From the sequence record PX880098.1: a stretch of DNA of 44,688 nt. One strand, given 5' to 3'. The DNA comes from a phage. Below are positions 3,121-44,681 of this stretch, in pieces; the first letter of the stretch is position 1; each line of letters begins with the position of its first letter. A model generated the notes under the pieces. That model saw only the letters and a program-made list of their open reading frames with translations. It searched no databases and was not told where the DNA came from. The translations under genes were made by a program, and so were the position numbers.

Positions 3121-3149
3121 ATAGTACCCTATTATATTGGTGTCTGCAA
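3121..3149 (-). promoter_or_regulatory. sigma70-like promoter, family B (TTGCAG-N17-TACTAT)
   Basis: Minus-strand reading TTGCAGacaccaatataatagggTACTATTCA; 17-nt spacer; contains ATAG-N4-CTAT; upstream of the 71-aa gene. Confidence 0.55.
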
Positions 3150-5619: not shown

Positions 5620-6324
5620 ATGAATCGTTTTTTACGTTATCCGTTCCAGGAAGAAGCTGGAGCAGAAGATAAATCTGGTGGCGGTGATGCGCCGAAAATG
5701 TTCACCGCTGAAGAAGTTCAGGCGCTGATTGAGAAAGAAGTCGCCGGGCTTAAGGCCAATCAGGAAGCATTGCTGGCGGAGAAGAAAGAAGCCGCCCGTA
5801 AAGCAAAAGAGGCTGAAGAAGAGCGGCAGCGCGCACACCAGGAGGCGTTAAAAGCCGCTGGTAAGATGGACGAGTTCGAAAAGACGATTCGTAGCCAGTA
5901 TGACCCGGTGTTAGCCGAGAAAGATGGTCGCATCTCCAGAATGGCAGAGCGCATCCTCGGCAGCGAACGTAAAGCGGTGCTAGGCTCTTTCGCGGGCGAC
6001 TTTATTACCCCGGAAGCAGTAGACATTCTTGCTCCGTTCGTTAAGACTGAGTTCGAAGGCGATGACGTGGTTACTAAGTTTGTCGGTGCAGATGGCAATG
6101 TAATCACGACTGACCCGGAACAGTTCCGCAAATACCTGCGTGAACACAAAGCGTTTTCGCATTTGATTAAAGCAAATGCAGCTTCCGGCGGCGGGGCTTC
6201 CGGCAGCAAAGGCGGCGGGGCCGCACCAGCGTTTAAAGACATGAGTGAAGCGGAGCGCATTGCTCTGTACGAATCGAACCCTGCCGAATTTGAACGGCAA
6301 CTTAAAGCCCTGAGGAAAAAATAA
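5620..6324 (+). CDS. scaffolding protein (putative)
   Basis: Directly upstream of the major capsid gene; highly charged alpha-helical sequence (KEAARKAKEAEEERQRAHQEALKAAG); start at ATG 5620 after AGGGGA. Confidence 0.6.
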   Translation: MNRFLRYPFQEEAGAEDKSGGGDAPKMFTAEEVQALIEKEVAGLKANQEALLAEKKEAARKAKEAEEERQRAHQEALKAAGKMDEFEKTIRSQYDPVLAEKDGRISRMAERILGSERKAVLGSFAGDFITPEAVDILAPFVKTEFEGDDVVTKFVGADGNVITTDPEQFRKYLREHKAFSHLIKANAASGGGASGSKGGGAAPAFKDMSEAERIALYESNPAEFERQLKALRKK

Positions 6325-7373
6325 TGGCAATTACTACTATCGGCGATATCGTAACTGGTAAAGAATCGGTAATTCTGTCTTATATGACCGAGGACCCGGT
6401 AGAAAAAACCGCGTTCTTCCAGTCCGGTATTCTTACCCCTACTCCGTACGCCGCTGAGATTGCTCGCGGTCCGTCCAACATCGCTAATATTCCTTTCTGG
6501 AAAGCTATCGATACGTCTATCGAGCCTAACTACTCGAACGACGTATACCAGGACATCGCAACCCCGCGTAACGTGCAGACCGGTGAGATGATGGCGCGCG
6601 TTGCGTACCTGAACGAAGGTTTCGGCCAGGCGGACCTGACTGTAGAACTGACCAGCCAGAACCCGCTGCAATCCGTAGCGTCCCGCCTGGATAACTTCTG
6701 GCAGCGCCAGGCGCAACGCCGTCTGATTGCTACCGCGCTTGGCCTGTACAACGACAACGTAGCTGCTACCGATGCCTACCACGAGCAGAACGACATGGTA
6801 ATTGACGTGTCCGCTACTCTGGGCTTCGACTCCGGCGCGTTCATCGATGCTACCCAGACTATGGGTGACGCTCTGATTGGCAACGGCGGCGAAGTGCTAG
6901 GCGCTATTGCTATGCATAGCTTCGTTTATGCGCAGGCACGTAAGCAACAGCTTATTGACTTCATCCGTGACGCCGACAACGACACCATGTTCGCCACCTA
7001 CCAGGGCTATCGTGTGATTGTTGACGACAGCATGACCGTAGTCGGTACAGGCGGCGACCGTAAGTTCATCTCCATCATCTTCGGCAACGGCGCTATCGGT
7101 TACGGGGAAGGCAACCCAACCAATCCGCTGGCCTATGAGCGCGAAGAGTCTCGCGGTAACGGTGGCGGTGTAGAAACCCTGTGGACCCGTAAGACTTGGT
7201 TGCTGCACCCGTTTGGCTACAGCTTCACCAGCGCGGTAATCACCGGCAACGGCACCGAGACTGTCGCACGCTCTGCTTCCTGGCAGGACCTGGCGAACGC
7301 CTCCAACTGGAACCGCGTTGTCGAGCGTAAGCATGTACCGATTGCCTTCCTGGTAACTGGTGTCGGTGCTTAA
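6324..7373 (+). CDS. major capsid protein
   Basis: 349-aa ORF after scaffold, strong SD GAGGA 7 nt upstream, followed by a strong terminator; position and size typical. Confidence 0.7.
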   Translation: MAITTIGDIVTGKESVILSYMTEDPVEKTAFFQSGILTPTPYAAEIARGPSNIANIPFWKAIDTSIEPNYSNDVYQDIATPRNVQTGEMMARVAYLNEGFGQADLTVELTSQNPLQSVASRLDNFWQRQAQRRLIATALGLYNDNVAATDAYHEQNDMVIDVSATLGFDSGAFIDATQTMGDALIGNGGEVLGAIAMHSFVYAQARKQQLIDFIRDADNDTMFATYQGYRVIVDDSMTVVGTGGDRKFISIIFGNGAIGYGEGNPTNPLAYEREESRGNGGGVETLWTRKTWLLHPFGYSFTSAVITGNGTETVARSASWQDLANASNWNRVVERKHVPIAFLVTGVGA

Positions 7374-10195: not shown

Positions 10196-10608
10196 TGGGC
10201 TACTTTGAGGACTTAACCAAAGCGTTCGATGTGCCGCTGGTAGCCTTTGGAACGACCAACGGCATCAAGGTAGCGCTTGAAAACATCGACGCGCCGACGT
10301 CAACAGATACGGCGTATCTGGCAAGCTACATGTTGCTGGCAGATACGGAACAGGCGGATTTGTTCTTCACGGAACAACGCTCAGGTGTTTATCAGGTTGA
10401 CATTAACTACGCATCGGTGAAAGGTAGCGCGCCAATCAATAAAATGGCAGACTTACTTAACACGGCGTTTAAAGCAGGTAAGTCATTTTCACGTAACGAC
10501 ATCTGCGCCGAGGTTCAATCGGTTAGCCTGGGGCCACTGATTGTAGAAAACGGATGGGCCAAACGACCATTGTCAATTAACTTTATTGCATTCACCAAGA
10601 GGCTGTGA
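10192..10608 (+). CDS. putative tail terminator protein
   Basis: 138-aa ORF immediately upstream of major tail protein gene; ATGA-coupled. Confidence 0.45.
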   Translation: MMGYFEDLTKAFDVPLVAFGTTNGIKVALENIDAPTSTDTAYLASYMLLADTEQADLFFTEQRSGVYQVDINYASVKGSAPINKMADLLNTAFKAGKSFSRNDICAEVQSVSLGPLIVENGWAKRPLSINFIAFTKRL

Positions 10609-10610
10609 AT

Positions 10611-11780
10611 ATGGCTACAACTCCTTTTAAGGGCGCGAATACCGCGCAATTCTATGTGGCGGAGACAACCCCTGGCGTAACCCCAGACAACCCTGTCTGG
10701 TCGCCGTTGCGTAACACCGGCGGTGTTCCTGCGGTAACCCGCGATGCGCTCACCTCCAACGAACTCGACGGCAGCCGTGAAACTACGTCCATCCGCACTG
10801 GTAACAAGCAGGTCAGCGGAGAGTACGCCATTGAGCTTAGCTCCCGTAGTCAGGATGATTTCCTCGCTGGTGCGATGACATCTACGTGGCAGGATGGGGT
10901 AACCTTATCCGCTGTCGGTATTACGGTAGACCCGGTAGCAAAAACTTTCACCCGCGACGCTGGCAGCTTCATTACTGACGGTGTAGAGGTCGGGGACCTT
11001 CTGTATTTTGACGCTTTAACTGGCGATAACTCTAAACCGTTCATCGTTACTGCCGTAACAGCTACTGTGGTTACAGGCGCAGGCATTCAGCACACCCTTA
11101 CCGCCGAAGGCCCTATTGAGACCGATGGAAAAACTGGCGACAAACTGGAAACCGGTAACGCATGTAAGACGTTCTCCATCCTGACATGGTTCAAAGGCCA
11201 GTGCGGGAACCCTGACGCGTACATGCTGACCAAAGGCGTGGAAATCTCCGGTTTCACCATTGAACAGGCCGTAAACGCGATGGTGACAGGAAGCTTCCCG
11301 TTCATCGGTCTGAGTCAGGAAATTCTTTCCGGCCCACCGGCAGGTTCCGACTTCTCTCAGGTCACATTCACCGATGAGCCGTTCTCATCTGTAGATGTGT
11401 CTGTGTCCGACGGTTCTACGCCGTTGCGTTGCGATACTCTGACCATCACCAACGACAACGGCGCATCTGCTCAGTTCGAACTTGGTAACAGTAGTGTTGC
11501 GTTCGTGGAGCGTGGTCGCGCGGCTAACACCTTCTCCATCTCCGGTAAGCTGTATGACATGGCGATGATTCAGAAGTTTATCAACGAGCAGCAGGTAGAG
11601 ATTAACTCTATTCTGGCTGGGGTAAACGGGGCCATGTCTTTCAGTTTGAAACGTGCGGAACTTACGGCGGTTACACCAGAGATTGGCGGACCTGAGTCAA
11701 TCACTCAGTCCATTGAAGGCCAGGCCACCGGCAATCAGTACCAGTCTTCTATTGTTATCCAGCGTATCACCTACGCATAA
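10611..11780 (+). CDS. major tail protein
   Basis: 391-aa ORF; SD AAGAGG 8 nt before ATG 10611; followed by strong terminator; position before chaperone and tape measure genes. Confidence 0.6.
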   Translation: MATTPFKGANTAQFYVAETTPGVTPDNPVWSPLRNTGGVPAVTRDALTSNELDGSRETTSIRTGNKQVSGEYAIELSSRSQDDFLAGAMTSTWQDGVTLSAVGITVDPVAKTFTRDAGSFITDGVEVGDLLYFDALTGDNSKPFIVTAVTATVVTGAGIQHTLTAEGPIETDGKTGDKLETGNACKTFSILTWFKGQCGNPDAYMLTKGVEISGFTIEQAVNAMVTGSFPFIGLSQEILSGPPAGSDFSQVTFTDEPFSSVDVSVSDGSTPLRCDTLTITNDNGASAQFELGNSSVAFVERGRAANTFSISGKLYDMAMIQKFINEQQVEINSILAGVNGAMSFSLKRAELTAVTPEIGGPESITQSIEGQATGNQYQSSIVIQRITYA

Positions 11781-11784
11781 AACT

Positions 11785-11810
11785 AAGGCCCCGAAAGGGG
11801 CCTTTTTCTT
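11785..11810. terminator. bidirectional intrinsic terminator
   Basis: AGGCCCC-GAAA-GGGGCCT followed by TTTTTCTT on plus strand; sits where plus and minus transcription converge; identical 29-mer repeated at 23352. Confidence 0.7.
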
Positions 11811-12363
11811 ACAAACCTAATTTTAAAGCAATGTCTATAACGTTCGATTTAACGTCACCGGGTATGATGTAGGTGTCGTAATCTTTTACACCATCAATAT
11901 CGTACAGGTAACTACGACTATCGCCGATGAACGTATAGCCGTCGCGGTGGAGGCGAACGATTCGCACGTCATGCCCCGCGGCGACGATAGGGGCAACTTC
12001 ACTGGCGAATCCACCGTCGGACACTACAAAAACTTCGTCGCCGTCAGGCAAGTTTTCAGCGAGATACTTACCGAAATAATCATCACCGAATACCGGTTTA
12101 ATGAATTGCTCAGAAATGGCAATCATGAACTGACGACGGGACAACCCATTAAGAAAACCCTCTGGCTTTTCTTTCCGTGCCCGGTCGTCGTAGCCGTCGA
12201 TAAATTCGTGGTAAGCATCCTGGCCTAACGCTGCCAAAGCAATATTGAACATTGGATTCTTGAAACTAGTAGTTCCTTTCGCAAAGCCCATTTCTACCAG
12301 CGCCATAGCAAGCGTGTCTTTCCCGCAACCCGCAGGGCCATTAAGAATGATTACCTTAGCCAT
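11809..12363 (-). CDS. deoxynucleoside monophosphate kinase (T4 gp1-like)
   Basis: P-loop GPAGCGKDT; C-terminal DGGFASE...VRIVRLHRDG resembles the T4 gp1 DTRQDHE...VIHVVRPG region. Confidence 0.55.
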   Translation of the reverse strand: MAKVIILNGPAGCGKDTLAMALVEMGFAKGTTSFKNPMFNIALAALGQDAYHEFIDGYDDRARKEKPEGFLNGLSRRQFMIAISEQFIKPVFGDDYFGKYLAENLPDGDEVFVVSDGGFASEVAPIVAAGHDVRIVRLHRDGYTFIGDSRSYLYDIDGVKDYDTYIIPGDVKSNVIDIALKLGL

Positions 12364-12851
12364 TATTTATTGCTCCCATGTGGTTTTAAGTGTGTAGAGT
12401 TCCCGTTACAGTCGTATTCAGTAACCGCGTGAGTGGTTATGCCGAGTTCGCGGAAATGCTTTATTACCGCCGGGGAGTCGTCGAACGCACACAAGATTCT
12501 TTCCAGCCCGATAGCGCGCAACACTTCTTCTTTAATTACGATGTCTTTTCTGTTGTCGTGTTTGCTGCGCATTATCAGCGTGTCAAACTTAACGTTATTT
12601 TCTCGCAACCATTTACGAGTCTCATCCTCAGCATCATCACTGCGCCCGGTAAGGATGATTATGGTCATCCCGGTATACCACAGTGTGTTGCACAAGTGAA
12701 TGTTGTCATATATCGGCGCATCATCTTTACAGGCTATGTTAAAAGGCTTCCACGCCCAGGTTTCGCCGTAGTTATCTTTCGGCAGCAGGTGTAACCGATG
12801 GGTGCCATCTGCCAATGTTCCATCTAAATCGAAAATTACAATATCTTTCAT
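12363..12851 (-). CDS. HAD-family phosphatase, T4 Pnk 3-prime-phosphatase-domain-like
   Basis: VIFDLDGTLA, ILTGR, NRKDIVIKEEVL and AFDDSPAVI align with T4 Pnk phosphatase motifs VIFDVDGTLA, VVSGR, TRKDDVVKEEIF, AIDDRTQVV. Confidence 0.65.
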   Translation of the reverse strand: MKDIVIFDLDGTLADGTHRLHLLPKDNYGETWAWKPFNIACKDDAPIYDNIHLCNTLWYTGMTIIILTGRSDDAEDETRKWLRENNVKFDTLIMRSKHDNRKDIVIKEEVLRAIGLERILCAFDDSPAVIKHFRELGITTHAVTEYDCNGNSTHLKPHGSNK

Positions 12852-13978
12852 CCCAGCATCTCCGGTGAAATAGTTAAACGTGCGACCTCGCCATATTCGG
12901 CGCTATAAGTAATTACGTTTGCACTACGGCCTGACATCCATCCGCCTCGCGAGGCGTAGGCATCTTTAGCCGCTAAGGTGCGGTGTTGCTCAACAATCAT
13001 GTTACGACTTTCTACAATCTTCTGGTGGTGCAGGTGGCCTACGTGGGCGTAGCTGTAAACACTCTCGCCGAACGCTTTACGGAACTTGGCAATCATAACC
13101 GGTTCAATAGCGTCGAACCGTGCTTTATGCCCGTGATGAAAGAACAGCGTCGTTTTGCCGTGTTGCACCATCTTGTAAACATCCGGCGACGTATCGACAA
13201 TCACTCGGCTGTCTTTTGAGTATAAAGTCGTGAACATTTCCGCCAACCACACAGACCCTACAGGGTCGTGATTTCCTTGCACGATAAGCAAGCGAACATT
13301 TTTGTGTTTAACCAGCGCCATATCAACAACACGACGCACCATACGAATCATGTAGCGGACCAGTTTCTGGTAGCGCGTATCTGCATCCAACACATGACGT
13401 GACTCAGGAGTAACGGCATCCAGACTATCAAAGTGCGCGAAGTCACCAAGAAGGTTAATAACCCCTGTTCCAGCATCCGGCGCTTTCTGGAACGCCGCAT
13501 CGAACCAACGAGAAAACAGGTCTTCCGCGATCTTCATGTCCCAATCGTCGCCGCTCTCGTCGGCCCATGCCAGCATACCGAGGTGGAAATCAGATACCGT
13601 GTAAAGATTAAGTAGCTTGTCGTCGCGTTTGGCGCGAACGGCTTTAACAGGTACAACTGGCGTAATCTCTGACTTCATGCCTTCGATTACGGCTTTCATC
13701 AACTCGACCTGACGTTCGGCGTCAGTATCGGTCTTAACCCATTGCAGTTTGGTGTTACCGAACTCATCCACCAGTGACGACGTTCCTTTAATCTTGTAGC
13801 CGTCCGGCACAAGGTGACTAACGTCACGCCCGTGGCCTACACCTTTCTTAGCCAGCTTCGCTTTACGGATACGAATCACGCGGTCTGAGATGCCGTATTT
13901 ACGTGCTATATCTATATTCTTCATCCCGGCGTTCAATTCTTCCTGTAACTGTTCGTCGGTTATTTTCTTATAGGCCAT
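12848..13978 (-). CDS. calcineurin-like metallophosphoesterase with N-terminal HTH-like region
   Basis: MPE motifs SDFHLG (DxH), GDFAHFD, QGNHD, HHGH, GHLHH; N-terminal NIDIARKYGISDRVIRIRKAK resembles an HTH. Confidence 0.6.
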   Translation of the reverse strand: MAYKKITDEQLQEELNAGMKNIDIARKYGISDRVIRIRKAKLAKKGVGHGRDVSHLVPDGYKIKGTSSLVDEFGNTKLQWVKTDTDAERQVELMKAVIEGMKSEITPVVPVKAVRAKRDDKLLNLYTVSDFHLGMLAWADESGDDWDMKIAEDLFSRWFDAAFQKAPDAGTGVINLLGDFAHFDSLDAVTPESRHVLDADTRYQKLVRYMIRMVRRVVDMALVKHKNVRLLIVQGNHDPVGSVWLAEMFTTLYSKDSRVIVDTSPDVYKMVQHGKTTLFFHHGHKARFDAIEPVMIAKFRKAFGESVYSYAHVGHLHHQKIVESRNMIVEQHRTLAAKDAYASRGGWMSGRSANVITYSAEYGEVARLTISPEMLG

Positions 13979-14016
13979 GCTTACTTCCTCGTGTTTAGGA
14001 TTTGTCCTATACTAGC

Positions 14017-14208
14017 TCACTTCTCTTTGACATTCGAGTTGCACGCCCAGATTAAAATAAATATCCATGGCAGCAGAACCCAGCCAAGAAACATATTAGC
14101 CATGAATATCGCCAGTTTCGCTTTATGACCCCGCATATGGGCCACTAAAAACGGGATAAAATAAACTAAAACGATAATGATTAAGAAGAACATAGTAATG
14201 CCGGTCAT
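14017..14208 (-). CDS. superinfection immunity (Imm-like) small membrane protein
   Basis: 63 aa, two TM segments; YFIPFLVAHMRGHKAKLAIFMANMFLGWVLLPWIFILIWA matches the Imm superinfection-exclusion family pattern; AT-rich. Confidence 0.6.
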   Translation of the reverse strand: MTGITMFFLIIIVLVYFIPFLVAHMRGHKAKLAIFMANMFLGWVLLPWIFILIWACNSNVKEK

Positions 14209-14249
14209 GCTGTAGCTCCTGTTTGAGTTAACATTGTTAGTGTAAGTGA

Positions 14250-14278
14250 ATAGTATCCTATTATGTTGGGGAGTGCAA
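14250..14278 (-). promoter_or_regulatory. sigma70-like promoter, family B (TTGCAC-N17-TACTAT)
   Basis: Minus-strand reading TTGCACtccccaacataataggaTACTATTCAC, almost identical to the plus-strand copy at 36092; drives the Imm/MPE/HAD/kinase operon. Confidence 0.6.
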
Positions 14279-14385
14279 GTAATGTGTTAGAATTATTTTG
14301 CGCCTAGTGTCGCACACGAAAAGCGGGTGGTTCCCGTCTGGCGCATTAACCTTAACCAGTAACCTCTTAACCAAAGGATTAAAGA

Positions 14386-14802
14386 ATGAAACTTTCTGAT
14401 TTTTATTACGAAGCTGAGGCGGAAAAAGGCGCCCGTATGCCAATCCCGCTGAAAGACGGCACCGATTCAGGGGAGTGGCTGAACGTTGTTTCACCGGAGG
14501 CAGACGTTGCCGTTAAAGCTATGAGGGCGTTTACACTTGCGTACCGTGCGGCATTAGGTAAATTGAAACCGCTTCGTGATAAATGCGAGGAACTGAAAGA
14601 TTTCTCGGAATACAATATCAAGATGGAAGACGCCGCGGCGGACCTTAACCGCCAGTTAGCACTTGAACTGGTTAACGGTTGGAGTCTCGATGATGAATTT
14701 AATGAAGAGAACCTGAATACTCTTTTTTCACAATATAAACGCCTCGCTGAACACGTTGTTGTTTTCCACAATGAACAGCTACGCCAATTGCAGGAAAAGT
14801 AG
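14386..14802 (+). CDS. tail assembly chaperone (gpG-like)
   Basis: 138-aa acidic ORF immediately upstream of tape measure gene, with downstream ORF in the -1 frame. Confidence 0.6.
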   Translation: MKLSDFYYEAEAEKGARMPIPLKDGTDSGEWLNVVSPEADVAVKAMRAFTLAYRAALGKLKPLRDKCEELKDFSEYNIKMEDAAADLNRQLALELVNGWSLDDEFNEENLNTLFSQYKRLAEHVVVFHNEQLRQLQEK

Positions 14803-14807
14803 ACGCG

Positions 14808-15167
14808 TTGCTCCAGTTTGCCCGTTGGAACTTCATAACCCGCCACAAACGGCGGGAGTTTGACAGTATCGCCGACGGGCATAAAGCCGCGCTAATTGCT
14901 ATGGGGGTTATGCAAGACGCGCCGGAAGCAACGCAGGACACAGGGCCGGAATGCCCCCCTGAGCTATTAACCACCTTCGAGAAGTACAGGGAAATCAAAT
15001 TCACCCGCCGAGTGGACGATGATGGCATCAAGATGTACCCGCGCGAACAGTTAAGATGGTCGGATTTAGTGGCGTATAGCACTGTTTCAGGCCAGAATAT
15101 AGGCATGTTTGAATCCGACATCATCATGAGCTTAGACGCTATTTTCGAGGGTAGAAACGATGGCTGA
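14808..15167 (+). CDS. tail assembly chaperone T-like segment (probably expressed as G-T fusion by -1 frameshift)
   Basis: ORF in -1 frame relative to 14386-14802, open from 14775; listed start is TTG; overlaps tape measure start. Confidence 0.45.
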   Translation: MLQFARWNFITRHKRREFDSIADGHKAALIAMGVMQDAPEATQDTGPECPPELLTTFEKYREIKFTRRVDDDGIKMYPREQLRWSDLVAYSTVSGQNIGMFESDIIMSLDAIFEGRNDG

Positions 15168-32520: not shown

Positions 32521-32584
32521 TGGGCTTTTCTAAAATAATTAATATGGTACTATTCACATATCAACTGACTAAGGAGTAATTGAC

Positions 32585-32800
32585 ATGCAACCATCTGAGC
32601 TAGGTATCCGTGTAGAACAACGCCGCAAAGAACTCGGCATCTCCCAGCGCCGTCTGGCTGTCCTGGCCGGCGTTTCCCAGGGCGCGATTAACCAACTGGC
32701 TCTCGGGGTAACTCAGGACGTCCGCCCGGCAACTCTGTTTAAACTGGCGGAAGTGCTGCAAGTAGACGCCAAGTGGCTGGCGTTCGGTGAAGGGGCTTAA
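32585..32800 (+). CDS. XRE-family HTH transcriptional regulator (Cro-like)
   Basis: 71 aa; HTH ISQRRLAVLAGVSQGAINQLALG; only plus-strand gene in the replication block, divergent from a family A promoter. Confidence 0.7.
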   Translation: MQPSELGIRVEQRRKELGISQRRLAVLAGVSQGAINQLALGVTQDVRPATLFKLAEVLQVDAKWLAFGEGA

Positions 32801-36091: not shown

Positions 36092-36120
36092 TTGCACGCC
36101 CCAACATAATAGGATACTAT
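36092..36120 (+). promoter_or_regulatory. sigma70-like promoter, family B (TTGCAC-N17-TACTAT)
   Basis: TTGCACgccccaacataataggaTACTATTCAC; contains ATAG-N4-CTAT; upstream of the PAPS-reductase-like gene. Confidence 0.6.
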
Positions 36121-36154
36121 TCACTTATAGTGACGAGACAGAGGAGTGATGGTC

Positions 36155-36916
36155 ATGAGCAAGCCGGTAATAGCGGTCTGGTTTTCGTGTGGTGCTGCCA
36201 GTGCGGTAGCTGCAAAAATAACTATCGAGAAATACAGTCATACTCATGATGTGCGTGTGCTTAACAACCCGGTGGCAGAGGAGGACGCTGACAACATACG
36301 TTTTCTTCATGATGTTGAAAATTGGATAGGTGTGAAAATTGAATCAGTAATTAACCCTATGTTCCCGAACGCCAGCGCTGTAGAGGTCTGGGACCATCAG
36401 CGTTATATGTCCGGCATTGCTGGAGCACCATGTACGAAGGCACTTAAGAAGCTCGCCAGAAAGCATTGGGAGCAATCAAATCGCTGTGACCATATCGTGC
36501 TTGGTTTTACTGCTGATGAGGCGCATCGCGCAGATAATTTCGTCAAAAACGAAAGGCGCAGTTTGATTCCAGTTCTGATTGAAGCCGGATACACAAAAGG
36601 AGACTGCTTTCGAATCCTTCTGGAGAACGGCATTCGACTTCCTCGTATTTATCACTTGGGTTACCCAAACGCGAACTGCATAGGATGTGTAAAAGCCACA
36701 TCTCCAACCTACTGGAATCTTGTCCGTCGCGTTCATCCTGAGGTATTTGTCCAACGTGCAGAGCAATCACGACGATTGGGTGTTCGTCTTGTTAGATATT
36801 CCGGAGAGCGCATCTATCTCGACGAGTTGCCGCCAGACGCAGTTGGCCGCCCAATAAAAAGTCTTGATTTTGAATGTGGGATTTTCTGTAAACCAGCAGA
36901 TGAGGATGAAGAATGA
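36155..36916 (+). CDS. PAPS reductase-like / PP-loop ATP pyrophosphatase superfamily protein with C-terminal Cys pairs
   Basis: N-terminal VWFSCGAAS at the position of a PP-loop SGGxDS; C-terminal CIGC and CGIFC; start ATG 36155 chosen 8 nt after GAGGAG. Confidence 0.5.
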   Translation: MSKPVIAVWFSCGAASAVAAKITIEKYSHTHDVRVLNNPVAEEDADNIRFLHDVENWIGVKIESVINPMFPNASAVEVWDHQRYMSGIAGAPCTKALKKLARKHWEQSNRCDHIVLGFTADEAHRADNFVKNERRSLIPVLIEAGYTKGDCFRILLENGIRLPRIYHLGYPNANCIGCVKATSPTYWNLVRRVHPEVFVQRAEQSRRLGVRLVRYSGERIYLDELPPDAVGRPIKSLDFECGIFCKPADEDEE

Positions 36917-37921: not shown

Positions 37922-37950
37922 TTGCACGCTAAGATAGAATAGGCTACTAT
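37922..37950 (+). promoter_or_regulatory. sigma70-like promoter, family B (TTGCAC-N17-TACTAT)
   Basis: TTGCACgctaagatagaataggcTACTATTCAT; contains ATAG-N4-CTAT; followed by conserved leader. Confidence 0.6.
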
Positions 37951-43825: not shown

Positions 43826-43849
43826 TAGACGGGCTAGATAATTGATGTT

Positions 43850-43883
43850 AGTATCAACCCATCCATTGAAGTGGGTTGATACT
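43850..43883 (+). repeat. perfect 12-bp inverted repeat abutting the HNH start codon
   Basis: AGTATCAACCCA (43850-43861) and TGGGTTGATACT (43872-43883) with 10-nt loop; ATG at 43884. Confidence 0.6.
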
Positions 43884-44681
43884 ATGAATTACGAAAAGAT
43901 ATACGAAAGCCTGATAGCTCGTTGTAGGTCGTTACCCCGCCAGGGCTACACCGAAAGACACCACATACTGCCGAGGTCCTTAGGCGGTGATGACTCCCCT
44001 GAGAATCTTATTGATCTATCCGCAAGAGAACATTTCTTCGCGCATCTCCTTCTGGCAAAAATCCACGGTGGTAACATGTGGGCCGCTCTGGCATACATGT
44101 CAAGAGGCGGCACTAAGTCAAGCAAACTGCATAAATGCACATCCCGTCAGTATGAGTTTATAAAGCGTAAAGACGCTGAATGGCGTAGCTTGAGGTACCG
44201 CGGGGATAAGAACCCGTTCTACGGGAAAACACATTCACCACAAGCCCTGGTGAAAATGCGCAAACCTAGGGTCAATAAAGAGAGACTTTTTGGGCGGACG
44301 GTGCCAGGTGTCGGGGCTATCATATCGTTTGTGCAGACGTATAAACCCCGCGCGGTAGAAATAGATACTACGGTTAGAGACCGAATTGATAGTTGGTTCA
44401 CGGTAGACGAGGAACTGCGGCAGCTTAATGTATTCCTCGCCCGTAGCCAGGGGCAGAAAGCGCTCAATCGCGACCACCGCGGCGAAAAGAACCCAAACTA
44501 CGGCAATGGGAAAGCCATATCAGGCGAAAAGAACCCGATGTTTGGAAAGAAACACAGCGAAAGCACCAGGGCCAAAATTGCGGAGAAAATGAAACGCACT
44601 ATGGTGTGCCCGCACTGCGGCAAAGAATCTAACATAGCAAACGCACATAGGTGGCACTTTGACAACTGCAAACACAAATGA
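43884..44681 (+). CDS. HNH homing endonuclease with NUMOD-like DNA-binding repeats
   Basis: HNH core YTERHHILPRSLGGDDSPENL...EHFFAH; repeated NPFYGKTHS and KNPNYG/KNPMFGKKHSESTRAKI NUMOD3-like motifs; C-terminal CPHCG...C zinc finger. Confidence 0.7.
   Translation: MNYEKIYESLIARCRSLPRQGYTERHHILPRSLGGDDSPENLIDLSAREHFFAHLLLAKIHGGNMWAALAYMSRGGTKSSKLHKCTSRQYEFIKRKDAEWRSLRYRGDKNPFYGKTHSPQALVKMRKPRVNKERLFGRTVPGVGAIISFVQTYKPRAVEIDTTVRDRIDSWFTVDEELRQLNVFLARSQGQKALNRDHRGEKNPNYGNGKAISGEKNPMFGKKHSESTRAKIAEKMKRTMVCPHCGKESNIANAHRWHFDNCKHK

What the first reader, a model, noticed from the sequence alone, without database searches (positions are those of the whole stretch)
11785..14278. Counter-oriented accessory island inside the tail module: Imm-like, HTH-metallophosphoesterase, Pnk-type phosphatase and gp1-like kinase
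Between the major tail protein gene and the tail chaperone genes lies a four-gene minus-strand operon with its own family B promoter (14250-14278) and a bidirectional terminator (11785-11810). It encodes a superinfection-exclusion-like membrane protein, a calcineurin-like phosphoesterase with an HTH-like N-terminus, a HAD phosphatase clearly homologous to the T4 Pnk 3-prime-phosphatase domain, and a P-loop kinase resembling T4 gp1. This enzyme set in a morphogenesis block is unusual and could be a nucleotide salvage unit or a nucleic-acid end-healing (counter-defence) unit; no ligase partner is visible.
Basis: partly seen in the sequence, partly recalled or inferred. Interest (0 to 1): 0.65.

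Follow-up and report, generated by a model that had tools for sequence, protein, structure and literature searches.

The report
Phage nucleotide-recycling operon between tail genes
A four-gene operon on the opposite strand sits between the tail genes of this Kagunavirus-type coliphage and most likely manages DNA-breakdown nucleotides and blocks rival phages; it is real, but it is a common, already annotated gene set of lytic phages.

Summary
Four minus-strand genes lie between the tail-tube gene and the tail-chaperone genes: an Imm-like membrane protein, an HTH-metallophosphoesterase (MPE), a HAD phosphatase and a P-loop kinase. They are bounded by a conserved sigma-70-type promoter that recurs in the genome and by a two-way terminator hairpin.

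The window is a complete Kagunavirus-like genome, and relatives carry an island at this position, though its content varies. The MPE–HAD–kinase trio recurs in the same order in T1-like siphophages and in a T7-like podophage.

The kinase is T4 gp1-like: gp1 is its top structural match, both fall in the same PHROG family, and only its P-loop aligns with T4 Pnk. The HAD carries the Pnk-type catalytic motifs, but its best family is the one that holds T5 Dmp, a characterised 5'-dNMP phosphatase. The MPE has all metal-binding motifs and folds like the Mre11, SbcD and PolD-DP1 nucleases.

In other phages the kinase sits beside dCMP deaminase, ribonucleotide reductase and ThyX. I therefore favour a host-DNA and nucleotide-pool module over end-healing. 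The MPE's role is the weakest inferred step. Novelty is low, because the arrangement is already annotated and was discussed in print in 2026.

The parts
14250..14278 (-). Sigma-70-type promoter TTGCAC-N17-TACTAT driving the operon; one of a repeated promoter family in this genome.
   Evidence: Read directly from the sequence. Conserved in 17 Kagunavirus relatives and recognisable in Jerseyvirus horsemountain. Near-identical copies lie at 36092-36120(+), 37922-37950(+) and 3121-3149(-). The 17-mer core occurs 5 times against 0.06 expected. It matches the consensus at only 7/12 positions, so the generic scanner missed it.
14017..14208 (-). 63-aa Imm-like small membrane protein, a candidate superinfection-exclusion factor. 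It occupies the promoter-proximal slot, which varies between relatives.
   Evidence: PF14373 Imm_superinfect 1.7e-13 (50.7 bits, cut-off 27.9); phrog_1039 1.3e-22. In relatives the slot holds an Imm variant with a different N-terminus, or an unrelated 108-aa protein with a signal-peptide-like N-terminus, phrog_14165.
12848..13978 (-). 376-aa protein with three parts: an N-terminal LuxR/sigma-70-region-4-like HTH (about residues 1-45), a beta-hairpin/helix linker, and a binuclear metallophosphoesterase domain (about 119-376). Predicted DNA nuclease.
12363..12851 (-). 162-aa stand-alone HAD (DxDxT) phosphatase of the PNKP / T5-Dmp type. Predicted (deoxy)nucleotide phosphatase.
   Evidence: PF25109 HAD_PNKP 1e-20; phrog_415 3.7e-66 against phrog_505 2.7e-26. 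PDB profile hits: Pnkp1 3e-15, T4 Pnk 1.5e-10. D8, D10, T68, K107 and D124-D125 align with T4 Pnk D165, D167, S211, K258 and D277-D278 (residue roles from PMC3592404). T5 Dmp falls in the same PHROG; hhalign probability 71%.
11809..12363 (-). 184-aa P-loop kinase with a GxGKD Walker A motif and many conserved arginines. Predicted dNMP kinase of the T4 gp1 type.
11785..11804 (.). Two-way intrinsic terminator hairpin shared by the tail-tube gene (+) and the island operon (-).
   Evidence: 8-bp stem with 6 GC pairs, GAAA loop, T-run on both strands. Folding energy -16.3 and -18.9 kcal/mol, z -3.7 and -4.4. A repeat is annotated at the equivalent spot in Jerseyvirus horsemountain.

Best explanation
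This is a non-structural operon of a virulent Kagunavirus-type phage. It uses the same promoter type as the genome's Cro-like regulator gene and its rightward gene clusters of small, mostly unassigned ORFs, so early or middle expression is likely (inferred).

Its three enzymes manage the deoxynucleotide pool that arises when DNA is broken down during infection.
- The HTH-metallophosphoesterase binds DNA through its N-terminal HTH and cuts it with an Mre11/SbcD/DP1-like two-metal site. This step is inferred and is the weakest.
- The HAD enzyme, a relative of T5 Dmp and of the T4 Pnk phosphatase domain, removes phosphates from mononucleotides or from 3'-phosphate products that cannot be used directly. 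This step is inferred from family membership.
- The gp1-like kinase converts 5'-dNMPs to dNDPs, which host NDP kinase turns into dNTPs for the phage's own DNA polymerase. This is the best-supported step.

The first gene encodes a small Imm-like membrane protein that probably excludes superinfecting phages. It occupies a slot that differs between relatives.

The position between tail genes is a fixed feature of Guernseyvirinae genome layout. It does not indicate a role in tail assembly.
For: Kinase:
- It hits the same PHROG (139) as a genuine T4-type gp1.
- The family keeps GKD plus conserved R61, R77, R137, R140 and R150, as NMP kinases do (the comparison with NMP kinases rests on my own knowledge).
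- Relatives without a HAD partner sit next to dCMP deaminase (L001, L003) and near ribonucleotide reductase and ThyX.

HAD:
- Its best family, phrog_415, also holds T5 Dmp (3.6e-57), whereas T4 Pnk is phrog_505 first.
- It shares with Dmp an insertion after motif I that T4 Pnk lacks.
- It scores above threshold for class-B acid phosphatase, a family that includes nucleotidases (the nucleotidase point rests on my own knowledge).

Linkage:
- Of 80 viral loci holding the kinase, 66 have the HAD upstream on the same strand and 26 have the whole trio.
- The trio keeps its order in a T1-like contig, Webervirus Sushi and podophage Nifs112.

MPE:
- All metal ligands are invariant and the nearest folds are nucleases.
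- This phage has its own polymerase, helicase-primase and SSB, but the ORFs screened showed no nucleotide-synthesis enzymes.

Literature:
- T1-type phages degrade the host chromosome and reuse the nucleotides, and the genes responsible are unidentified (PMC11447400).
- The exonuclease gene is present in 508 of 522 Drexlerviridae. The PNK and dNMP-kinase genes that follow it were proposed to enhance nucleotide supply (PMC13164509).
- T5 pairs a predicted MPE (A1), necessary and sufficient for host DNA degradation in vivo, with Dmp (bioRxiv 10.64898/2026.04.02.716235).
Against: - No activity has been measured for any of the four proteins.
- A co-transcribed dNMP phosphatase and dNMP kinase look futile unless their substrates differ.
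- The HAD keeps every T4 Pnk catalytic residue, including the aligned R176 and R213 equivalents, so a polynucleotide 3'-phosphatase activity is not excluded.
- The MPE is not demonstrably homologous to T5 A1 (hhalign probability 17%, different PHROG).
- The MPE also occurs without HAD or kinase in many Jerseyviruses and in Dhillonvirus StarDew, as far as that record runs.
- It is also found in a Frateuria terrea prophage between RusA and the lysis genes, which fits poorly with a host-chromosome destroyer.
- A DNA ligase gene lies just downstream of the kinase in two unrelated phages.
- Direct hhalign of the kinase family against gp1 is weak (42%, 45 columns).
Confidence: 0.5

Rival explanations
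1. Split end-healing unit. The HAD removes 3'-phosphate or 2',3'-cyclic phosphate from broken RNA or DNA. The kinase phosphorylates 5'-OH ends. The MPE trims or opens damaged ends. A host ligase, or in some phages a phage ligase, seals the break. This would counter host nucleases that leave 3'-P/5'-OH ends.
For: - The HAD passes the Pfam HAD_PNKP threshold, and its closest solved relatives are Pnkp1 and T4 Pnk.
- All T4 Pnk phosphatase catalytic residues are conserved.
- A phosphatase tightly linked to a P-loop kinase (66 of 80 loci) is the Pnkp logic.
- An ATP-dependent DNA ligase gene follows the kinase directly in Pantoea phage Nifs112 and one gene further down in contig L001.
Against: - The kinase shares only the P-loop with T4 Pnk (26 columns).
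- The kinase family carries the arginine-rich NMP-kinase pattern, and no invariant aspartate follows strand 2. My recollection is that T4 Pnk has its general base there.
- The HAD's best PHROG is that of T5 Dmp, not that of Pnk.
- The ORFs screened in the window include no RNA or DNA ligase.
- Kinase-only relatives sit in nucleotide-metabolism contexts.
Confidence: 0.15
2. The neighbours do not form one pathway. HAD and kinase are a nucleotide-pool pair. The HTH-MPE is an independent core factor, for example a DNA-processing enzyme for replication or recombination intermediates, or a regulator tied to the switch to late or lysis genes. It merely shares the transcription unit.
For: - The MPE occurs in 2041 phage records against 1537 for the kinase. 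For Salmonella phages the counts are 373 against 43.
- Jerseyvirus horsemountain keeps Imm and MPE but carries an HNH endonuclease and a Rha/ANT protein in place of HAD and kinase.
- In 40 of 80 kinase loci the MPE was not found in the sequence held.
- In Drexlerviridae the MPE is a core gene fixed upstream of the lysis cassette (PMC13164509).
- In Dhillonvirus it follows the lysis genes, and in a Frateuria prophage it lies between RusA and the lysozyme gene.
- The N-terminal domain resembles sigma-70 region 4 / LuxR HTHs, with a weak hit to a late transcriptional activator PHROG.
Against: - The same MPE-HAD-kinase order, often with overlapping or tightly spaced genes, is kept in four phage lineages at 39-58% protein identity. 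Chance adjacency does not readily explain that.
- All MPE catalytic residues are invariant, so it is an enzyme and not only a DNA binder.
Confidence: 0.25
3. Counter-defence by removing danger signals. The HAD, or the kinase, clears modified mononucleotides such as m6dAMP that are released from degraded host DNA. Systems like Metis sense these molecules, so clearing them would hide genome degradation from the host.
For: - Metis is triggered by m6dAMP, and its own HAD protein MisB dephosphorylates m6dAMP (bioRxiv 10.1101/2025.11.05.686725).
- The phage HAD belongs to a dNMP-phosphatase-containing family.
- In T1-like genomes the trio lies a few genes downstream of a Dam-type methylase gene.
Against: - T5, which carries Dmp, is still restricted by Metis according to that paper.
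- MisB is reported as PF13419, not PF25109, and MisA has a PUA-like N-terminus, not an HTH.
- None of the four proteins hits a PADLOC model. That database dates from 2023, and I did not check whether it covers Metis.
- Nothing here bears on substrate preference.
Confidence: 0.05

Closest known systems
T4 gp1 deoxynucleoside monophosphate kinase (PDB 1DEK; phrog_139)
   Different: The island kinase is 184 aa against 241 aa. Direct profile-to-sequence alignment is weak (probability 42%, 45 columns). Substrate range is unknown. It is usually preceded by a HAD phosphatase gene, which is not the case at the T4-type gp1 locus examined.
T5 Dmp, deoxynucleoside-5'-monophosphatase (phrog_415)
   Same: Same PHROG as the island HAD (3.6e-57 and 3.7e-66). 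Shared DLDGT motif, the following 'HR' and a cap-like insertion, and the T-x-R motif II. Both sit in phages that also carry an MPE with nuclease-like structural features.
   Different: Only 23% identity. The C-terminal halves do not align cleanly, and Dmp has an insertion of about 40 residues. Dmp does not reach any Pfam family, whereas the island HAD passes HAD_PNKP. Dmp is a pre-early gene whose products are excreted; here the HAD is co-transcribed with a kinase.
T4 Pnk (PseT) phosphatase domain and Capnocytophaga Pnkp1 (PF25109)
   Same: Pfam HAD_PNKP 1e-20, and the closest solved structures by sequence. The nucleophile, acid-base Asp, motif II S/T, Lys and Mg-binding DD are all conserved.
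   Different: It is a stand-alone protein with no fused Pnk-type kinase, and the neighbouring kinase is gp1-like. It has an insertion of about 16 residues after motif I that Pnk lacks. Its score to the Pnk PHROG (505) is lower than to phrog_415.
T5 A1, predicted metallophosphatase that drives host DNA degradation
   Same: Both are phage MPEs whose structural neighbours are double-strand-break-repair nucleases and polymerase proofreading subunits (bioRxiv 10.64898/2026.04.02.716235). A1 interacts with host RNA polymerase and works alongside a separate DNA-binding protein, A2. The island MPE carries a sigma-region-4-like HTH of its own.
   Different: Homology is not demonstrable: hhalign probability 17% over 21 columns around GNHD, and different PHROGs (1745 against 704). 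A1 is 556 aa and largely confined to Demerecviridae. T5 A2 does not match the HTH.
Mre11 / SbcD / PolD DP1 nucleases
   Different: No Rad50/SbcC partner was seen among the ORFs screened in the genome. The protein has an N-terminal HTH. No significant sequence match to any solved MPE. Pfam Metallophos scores fall below threshold.
'DNA repair exonuclease – PNK – dNMP kinase' genes of Drexlerviridae (e.g. Klebsiella phage Sushi gp37-39)
   Same: Orthologous trio in the same order (MPE about 40%, HAD 58% identity, kinase 42-46% in Klebsiella T1-like phages). It has been described in print with a nucleotide-supply hypothesis (PMC13164509).
   Different: There it lies in the replication/lysis region on the same strand as its neighbours. 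Here it is inverted inside the tail gene block and is led by an Imm-like gene.

Membership tests
T4 gp1-type dNMP kinase (phrog_139) | Match to the family profile that also captures genuine gp1 | tested here: met
   Window kinase hits phrog_139 at 5.6e-46. A T4-type gp1 taken from a Tequatrovirus record hits phrog_139 at 7e-66.
T4 gp1-type dNMP kinase (phrog_139) | gp1 fold closer than other P-loop kinases | tested here: met
T4 gp1-type dNMP kinase (phrog_139) | Direct sequence homology to gp1 over most of its length | tested here: inconclusive
   hhalign of family alignment A1 against gp1 gives probability 42% over 45 N-terminal columns. A PDB profile search found only P-loop matches.
T4 gp1-type dNMP kinase (phrog_139) | Phosphorylates dNMPs to dNDPs | not testable with these tools
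   Needs an enzyme assay.
T4 Pnk / PNKP-type HAD 3'-phosphatase (PF25109) | Pfam HAD_PNKP above the gathering score | tested here: met
   74.8 bits against a cut-off of 27.6, residues 3-145.
T4 Pnk / PNKP-type HAD 3'-phosphatase (PF25109) | DxDxT nucleophile and acid-base, motif II S/T, motif III Lys, motif IV DD | tested here: met
   D8, D10, T68, K107 and D124-D125 align with T4 Pnk D165, D167, S211, K258 and D277-D278 (residue roles from PMC3592404).
T4 Pnk / PNKP-type HAD 3'-phosphatase (PF25109) | Partnered with a polynucleotide 5'-kinase of the Pnk type | tested here: not met
   The adjacent kinase aligns with T4 Pnk only over 26 P-loop columns and is gp1-like by fold.
T4 Pnk / PNKP-type HAD 3'-phosphatase (PF25109) | Pnk family is the best-scoring phage family | tested here: not met
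   phrog_505 (the Pnk family) scores 2.7e-26 against 3.7e-66 for phrog_415. T4-type Pnk itself scores 2.1e-126 on 505 and 4.7e-24 on 415.
T5 Dmp-type dNMP 5'-phosphatase (phrog_415) | Same family profile as characterised Dmp | tested here: met
   T5 Dmp hits phrog_415 at 3.6e-57 over its full length. The window HAD scores 3.7e-66.
T5 Dmp-type dNMP 5'-phosphatase (phrog_415) | Direct homology to Dmp, including the insertion after motif I | tested here: inconclusive
   hhalign probability 71%, E 3.8e-5, 71 columns from motif I to motif II. The C-terminal half does not align cleanly.
T5 Dmp-type dNMP 5'-phosphatase (phrog_415) | Hydrolyses 5'-dNMPs | not testable with these tools
   Needs an enzyme assay with 5'-dNMP, 3'-dNMP and 3'-phosphate oligonucleotides.
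Binuclear metallophosphoesterase superfamily | Motifs DxH, GD, GNH(D/E), H, GHxH all present | tested here: met
   D130, H132, G178-D179, N236-H237, H282, G314 and H317 are invariant, and D238 and H315 nearly so, in 44 relatives. The fold is confirmed. Pfam scores, however, fall below their cut-offs.
Mre11/SbcD nucleases | Rad50/SbcC ATPase partner | tested here: not met
   PHROG screening of ten ORFs in the replication and right-hand regions (179-821 aa) found a helicase, polymerase, SSB, exonuclease and helicase-primase, but no SMC-like ATPase. Not every ORF was screened.
Mre11/SbcD nucleases | DNA exo- or endonuclease activity | not testable with these tools
T5 A1 host-DNA-degradation factor (phrog_1745) | Sequence or profile homology to A1 | tested here: not met
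   hhalign probability 17% over 21 columns. A1 is phrog_1745, the island MPE is phrog_704.
CthPnkp / lambda-phosphatase-type end-healing MPE | Fold closest to PPP-family phosphatases | tested here: not met
T4 Imm superinfection immunity protein (PF14373) | Pfam domain above the gathering score in a small hydrophobic protein | tested here: met
   50.7 bits against 27.9, residues 15-56. The sequence shows two hydrophobic stretches.
T4 Imm superinfection immunity protein (PF14373) | Blocks DNA entry of superinfecting phage | not testable with these tools
   Needs exclusion assays.
Metis defence system (MisA/MisB) | PUA-like sensor fused to an MPE, plus a PF13419 HAD | tested here: not met
   The island MPE has an HTH N-terminus, and the HAD is PF25109. 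There are no PADLOC hits, but I did not check whether that 2023 database covers Metis. The system is described in bioRxiv 10.1101/2025.11.05.686725.

The most novel reading that the evidence does not exclude
The HTH-metallophosphoesterase (phrog_704) is the still-unidentified nuclease that T1-like, Guernsey-like and related lytic phages use to destroy the host chromosome. It would be a functional analogue of T5 A1 that arose separately. Together with the Dmp-like phosphatase and the gp1-like kinase it would form a portable three-gene 'host DNA to dNDP' cassette that moves between unrelated phage lineages. The phosphatase would sort or clean the breakdown products: 3'-phosphates, or modified dNMPs that would otherwise be misincorporated or sensed by the host.
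Probability: 0.25. Interest if true: 0.55.

Novelty: new member of a known kind. Interest (0 to 1): 0.3.

Why it matters
This gene set is one of the most widespread uncharacterised enzyme groups in lytic phages of enterobacteria. The MPE is in 2041 of 50,697 phage records, the HAD in 2330 (a count that includes fused Pnk-type proteins) and the kinase in 1537. The MPE is a core gene of Drexlerviridae.

Databases label the HAD 'polynucleotide kinase' and the MPE 'DNA repair exonuclease'. Both names come from annotation transfer and are probably misleading.

If the module turns out to be the machinery that converts host DNA into phage precursors, it would answer which genes T1-type phages use to degrade the host chromosome. 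It would also bear on how such phages meet defences that sense or starve nucleotide pools. As it stands, the island is an ordinary, conserved feature of its phage group.

Tried and rejected
- Sequence searches of the kinase against solved structures, alone and as a 40-sequence profile, returned only P-loop matches. The fold search was needed to place it.
- Sequence and profile searches of the MPE against solved structures gave nothing significant, only weak HTH and GNHD matches.
- hhalign of the MPE family against T5 A1 and T5 A2 showed no demonstrable homology.
- A BFVD fold search of the MPE returned only unnamed or generically named phage MPEs and 'DNA polymerase II small subunit' labels. 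It gave no functional lead.
- NCBIfam and PADLOC scans of all four proteins gave nothing above threshold.
- megablast of the island against 5,426 complete E. coli genomes found no match, so it is not seen as a prophage there.
- The first scan of bacterial genome contigs with the 44-sequence MPE alignment failed for lack of a conserved stretch. The repeat with 9 sequences used a single pattern and found only 5 loci, so it says little about prevalence.
- Literature searches on Kagunavirus/Guernseyvirinae with these enzyme names found only genome-announcement annotation. A search for the T1 genes behind host-DNA degradation found nothing that maps them.
- The idea that the island is a recent foreign insertion was rejected. 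GC content is only slightly lower (0.47-0.50 against about 0.52), and the locus is shared with Jerseyvirus.
- The anti-Metis idea is kept only as a low-probability rival.

Full report
**What the window is.** The 44,688-bp window behaves as a complete genome of a Kagunavirus-like siphophage (Guernseyvirinae). The 3.1-kb stretch around the finding matches 301 phage records, mostly Escherichia and Salmonella phages. The best full-length matches are about 92% identical, for example vB_EcoS-22664BS2. Structural genes run rightward from a 408-aa ORF at the left end, which I take to be the large terminase but did not test. Replication genes run leftward from about 35 kb: helicase, PolA-type polymerase, Gp2.5-like SSB, exonuclease and helicase-primase.

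**Checking the observation.** Four minus-strand ORFs fill the gap between the tail-tube gene and the tail-assembly chaperone genes.
- The tail-tube gene is at 10605-11780 (PF18906, 6.3e-38). The chaperone genes are at 14386-14802 and 14808-15167.
- The four ORFs are Imm-like 14017-14208, HTH-MPE 12848-13978, HAD 12363-12851 and kinase 11809-12363.
- The last three are tightly packed, with overlaps of 4 nt and 1 nt, which suggests a single transcript.
- The operon ends at an 8-bp GC-rich hairpin (11785-11804) with T-runs in both directions. It folds far better than shuffled sequence, with z-scores of -3.7 and -4.4.

**The promoter.** The stated promoter, TTGCAC-17-TACTAT at 14278-14250, is a modest sigma-70 match at 7 of 12 positions, and the scanner did not call it. 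Two things show it is not a chance match.
- It is conserved across 17 Kagunavirus relatives and recognisable in a Jerseyvirus.
- It has near-identical copies elsewhere. Copies at 36092-36120 and 37922-37950 sit in front of the rightward gene clusters, and a one-mismatch copy is at 3121-3149. Its 17-mer core also lies in front of a Cro-like HTH gene at 32585-32800.
- The core occurs 5 times against 0.06 expected by chance.

It ties the island to non-structural, probably early or middle, transcription. That timing is an inference, since no expression data are available.

**The kinase.** Sequence searches against solved structures found only the P-loop.
- A 40-sequence alignment shows an invariant GxGKD, an SDGGF motif and a set of conserved arginines: R61, R77, R137, R140 and R150.
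- The AlphaFold model is confident, with pLDDT 94.6.
- A genuine T4-type gp1 taken from a Tequatrovirus record falls in the same PHROG (139) as the island kinase.
- Direct hhalign to gp1 is weak, at 42% over 45 columns.
- Against T4-type Pnk only 26 P-loop columns align.

**The HAD phosphatase.** It passes Pfam HAD_PNKP (1e-20) and, more weakly, class-B acid phosphatase.
- Its nearest solved relatives are Capnocytophaga Pnkp1 and T4 Pnk.
- The residues that PMC3592404 describes as the T4 Pnk phosphatase machinery (D165, D167, S211, K258, D278) all have counterparts: D8, D10, T68, K107 and D124-D125.
- The decisive cross-check came from PHROGs. The island HAD scores 3.7e-66 on phrog_415 and only 2.7e-26 on phrog_505.
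- T4-type Pnk scores 2.1e-126 on 505 and 4.7e-24 on 415. T5 Dmp, the characterised deoxynucleoside-5'-monophosphatase, scores 3.6e-57 on phrog_415 over its full length.
- The HAD family and Dmp share the segment after motif I (HR…P…N-A…D), which T4 Pnk lacks. hhalign gives probability 71% over 71 columns.

The database label 'polynucleotide kinase' for this family is thus annotation transfer. Its characterised member is a mononucleotide phosphatase. T4 Pnk's phosphatase also accepts 3'-dTMP in vitro (PMC3592404), so mononucleotide activity is plausible across the wider group.

**The metallophosphoesterase.** Pfam Metallophos scores fall below threshold, but the family is very large.
- It comprises 4,526 clusters at 50% identity and is present in 2,041 phage records.
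- All metal-binding motifs are invariant in 44 relatives of 32-50% identity.
- The model (pLDDT 90.9) shows a three-helix HTH, a beta-hairpin/helix linker and the MPE domain.
- The HTH gives weak hits to GerE/LuxR-type regulators and to FixJ. The Sushi record annotates it as sigma-70 region 4.

A DNA-binding nuclease is the most economical reading, but the margin over non-nuclease folds is small and no activity is known.

**The Imm-like protein.** PF14373 scores 50.7 bits against a cut-off of 27.9. In relatives this promoter-proximal slot holds an Imm variant with another N-terminus, or an unrelated 108-aa protein with a signal-peptide-like N-terminus. It is therefore a variable slot for envelope proteins. 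That fits superinfection exclusion, which is an inference.

**Distribution.**
- A T1-like 53-kb contig carries MPE (39% identity), HAD (49%) and kinase in the same order, between a Dam gene and the lysis genes.
- Klebsiella phage Sushi (Webervirus) has them as gp37-39.
- Pantoea podophage Nifs112 (Autographiviridae) has them as ORF32-34, followed by a DNA ligase gene.
- Among the 80 best IMG/VR loci with a kinase relative, 66 have the HAD upstream on the same strand and 26 have the full trio. This sample is not random and contains close relatives.
- Kinase relatives that lack the HAD sit next to dCMP deaminase, and near ribonucleotide reductase and ThyX. In one 74-kb contig the order is dCMP deaminase, MPE, a DUF4406 protein, kinase.
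- The MPE is more widespread than its partners. Jerseyvirus horsemountain keeps Imm and MPE at the same locus but has an HNH endonuclease and a Rha/ANT protein in place of HAD and kinase.
- Dhillonvirus StarDew carries the MPE after its lysis genes, with no HAD or kinase in the remaining 213 bases of the record. A Frateuria terrea prophage carries it between RusA and the lysozyme gene.
- No copy is found in 5,426 complete E. coli genomes.

**Literature.**
- A 2026 analysis of Drexlerviridae found the 'DNA repair exonuclease' in 508 of 522 genomes, upstream of the lysis cassette. It noted that PNK and dNMP-kinase genes often follow, and suggested that they extend the replication module by enhancing nucleotide supply (PMC13164509).
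- The TLS re-annotation states that T1 and TLS degrade the host genome and reuse its nucleotides, and that the responsible genes have not been identified (PMC11447400).
- In T5, the predicted metallophosphatase A1 is necessary and sufficient for host DNA degradation. It resembles double-strand-break-repair nucleases and polymerase proofreading subunits, and it interacts with RNA polymerase. Dmp adjusts the nucleotide pool (bioRxiv 10.64898/2026.04.02.716235).
- The island MPE shows the same kind of structural neighbours and carries its own HTH. However, it is not demonstrably homologous to A1 or A2.

**Interpretation.** The best-supported model is a nucleotide-pool and host-DNA-recycling operon with an exclusion gene at its head.
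- The kinase step is well supported.
- The HAD as a nucleotide phosphatase is moderately supported.
- The MPE as the nuclease that feeds them is inferred.

The model's main difficulty is that a dNMP phosphatase and a dNMP kinase made together need different substrates. The phosphatase might act on 3'-phosphates, on modified or unwanted dNMPs, or on ribonucleotides.

The end-healing rival keeps some weight. The HAD has all the Pnk catalytic residues, it is tightly paired with a kinase, and a ligase gene follows in two lineages. But the kinase evidence goes against it.

A third possibility is that the MPE has an independent core role and is only a neighbour. Its wider distribution and its link with lysis genes support that.

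**Verdict.** The claim that the set is unusual is not supported. The arrangement is conserved, already annotated in many GenBank records, and has been discussed in print. Its biochemistry remains untested.

Noticed in passing
window 14297-14361 (+), in the intergenic region 14209-14385: This is the only Rfam hit in the whole window: int-alpA RNA (RF02996), 34.2 bits, just under the gathering score of 35.8 (E 0.0019 for the whole window). The same spot in relative vB_Eco_K-02 scores 36.6, above threshold. It lies on the strand of the tail-chaperone genes, just upstream of them, where late transcription must resume after the inverted island. On a 7-sequence alignment, 98% of cells pair, and a Jerseyvirus shows two compensatory changes in one hairpin.
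   Followed up: partly
window 14250-14278(-), 36092-36120(+), 37922-37950(+), 3121-3149(-), 32541-32557(+): A promoter family TTGCAC-N17-TACTAT shares a conserved spacer and extended -10 region (AATAGGNTACTATTCA). The shared spacer suggests a regulator binding site as well as a promoter. One copy precedes a 71-aa Cro/CI-type HTH gene at 32585-32800, which ends in its own terminator-like hairpin.
   Followed up: partly
L015, L016, L018, L021, L022 (e.g. L018:4997-5323) compared with window 14017-14208: In some Kagunavirus relatives the Imm-like gene is replaced by an unrelated 108-aa protein with a signal-peptide-like N-terminus (phrog_14165, unknown function). Others carry an Imm variant with a different N-terminus. 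The first slot of the operon is therefore a hot spot for envelope proteins.
   Followed up: partly
L007 (Salmonella phage horsemountain) 3759-6695: At the same locus this Jerseyvirus has Imm, an MPE (54% identical), an HNH endonuclease, a small ORF and a Rha/ANT-type protein in place of HAD and kinase. The right half of the island is therefore exchangeable.
   Followed up: yes
L094 (Frateuria terrea, 492-kb contig) 6019-7104: An HTH-MPE homologue (49% identity) sits in an apparent prophage. A DNA methylase and RusA lie upstream, and lysozyme, terminase and portal genes lie downstream. This resembles the nin/Q region of lambdoid phages.
   Followed up: partly
window 36146-36916 (+): A 256-aa PAPS-reductase-like protein (phrog_424, 7e-41) is the first gene after one copy of the promoter family. 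Its role in a virulent siphophage is unclear.
   Followed up: no
H137, Escherichia phage AV108 47511-47912: A 166-kb phage, whose second match I take to be its fused Pnk, carries a separate stand-alone '3'-phosphatase' (45% identical to the island HAD) next to the ribonucleotide reductase beta-subunit gene. This is another nucleotide-metabolism context for this HAD type.
   Followed up: no
window 43842-44681 (+): A 279-aa homing-endonuclease-like gene (phrog_655, 1.1e-60) lies at the right end of the genome.
   Followed up: no
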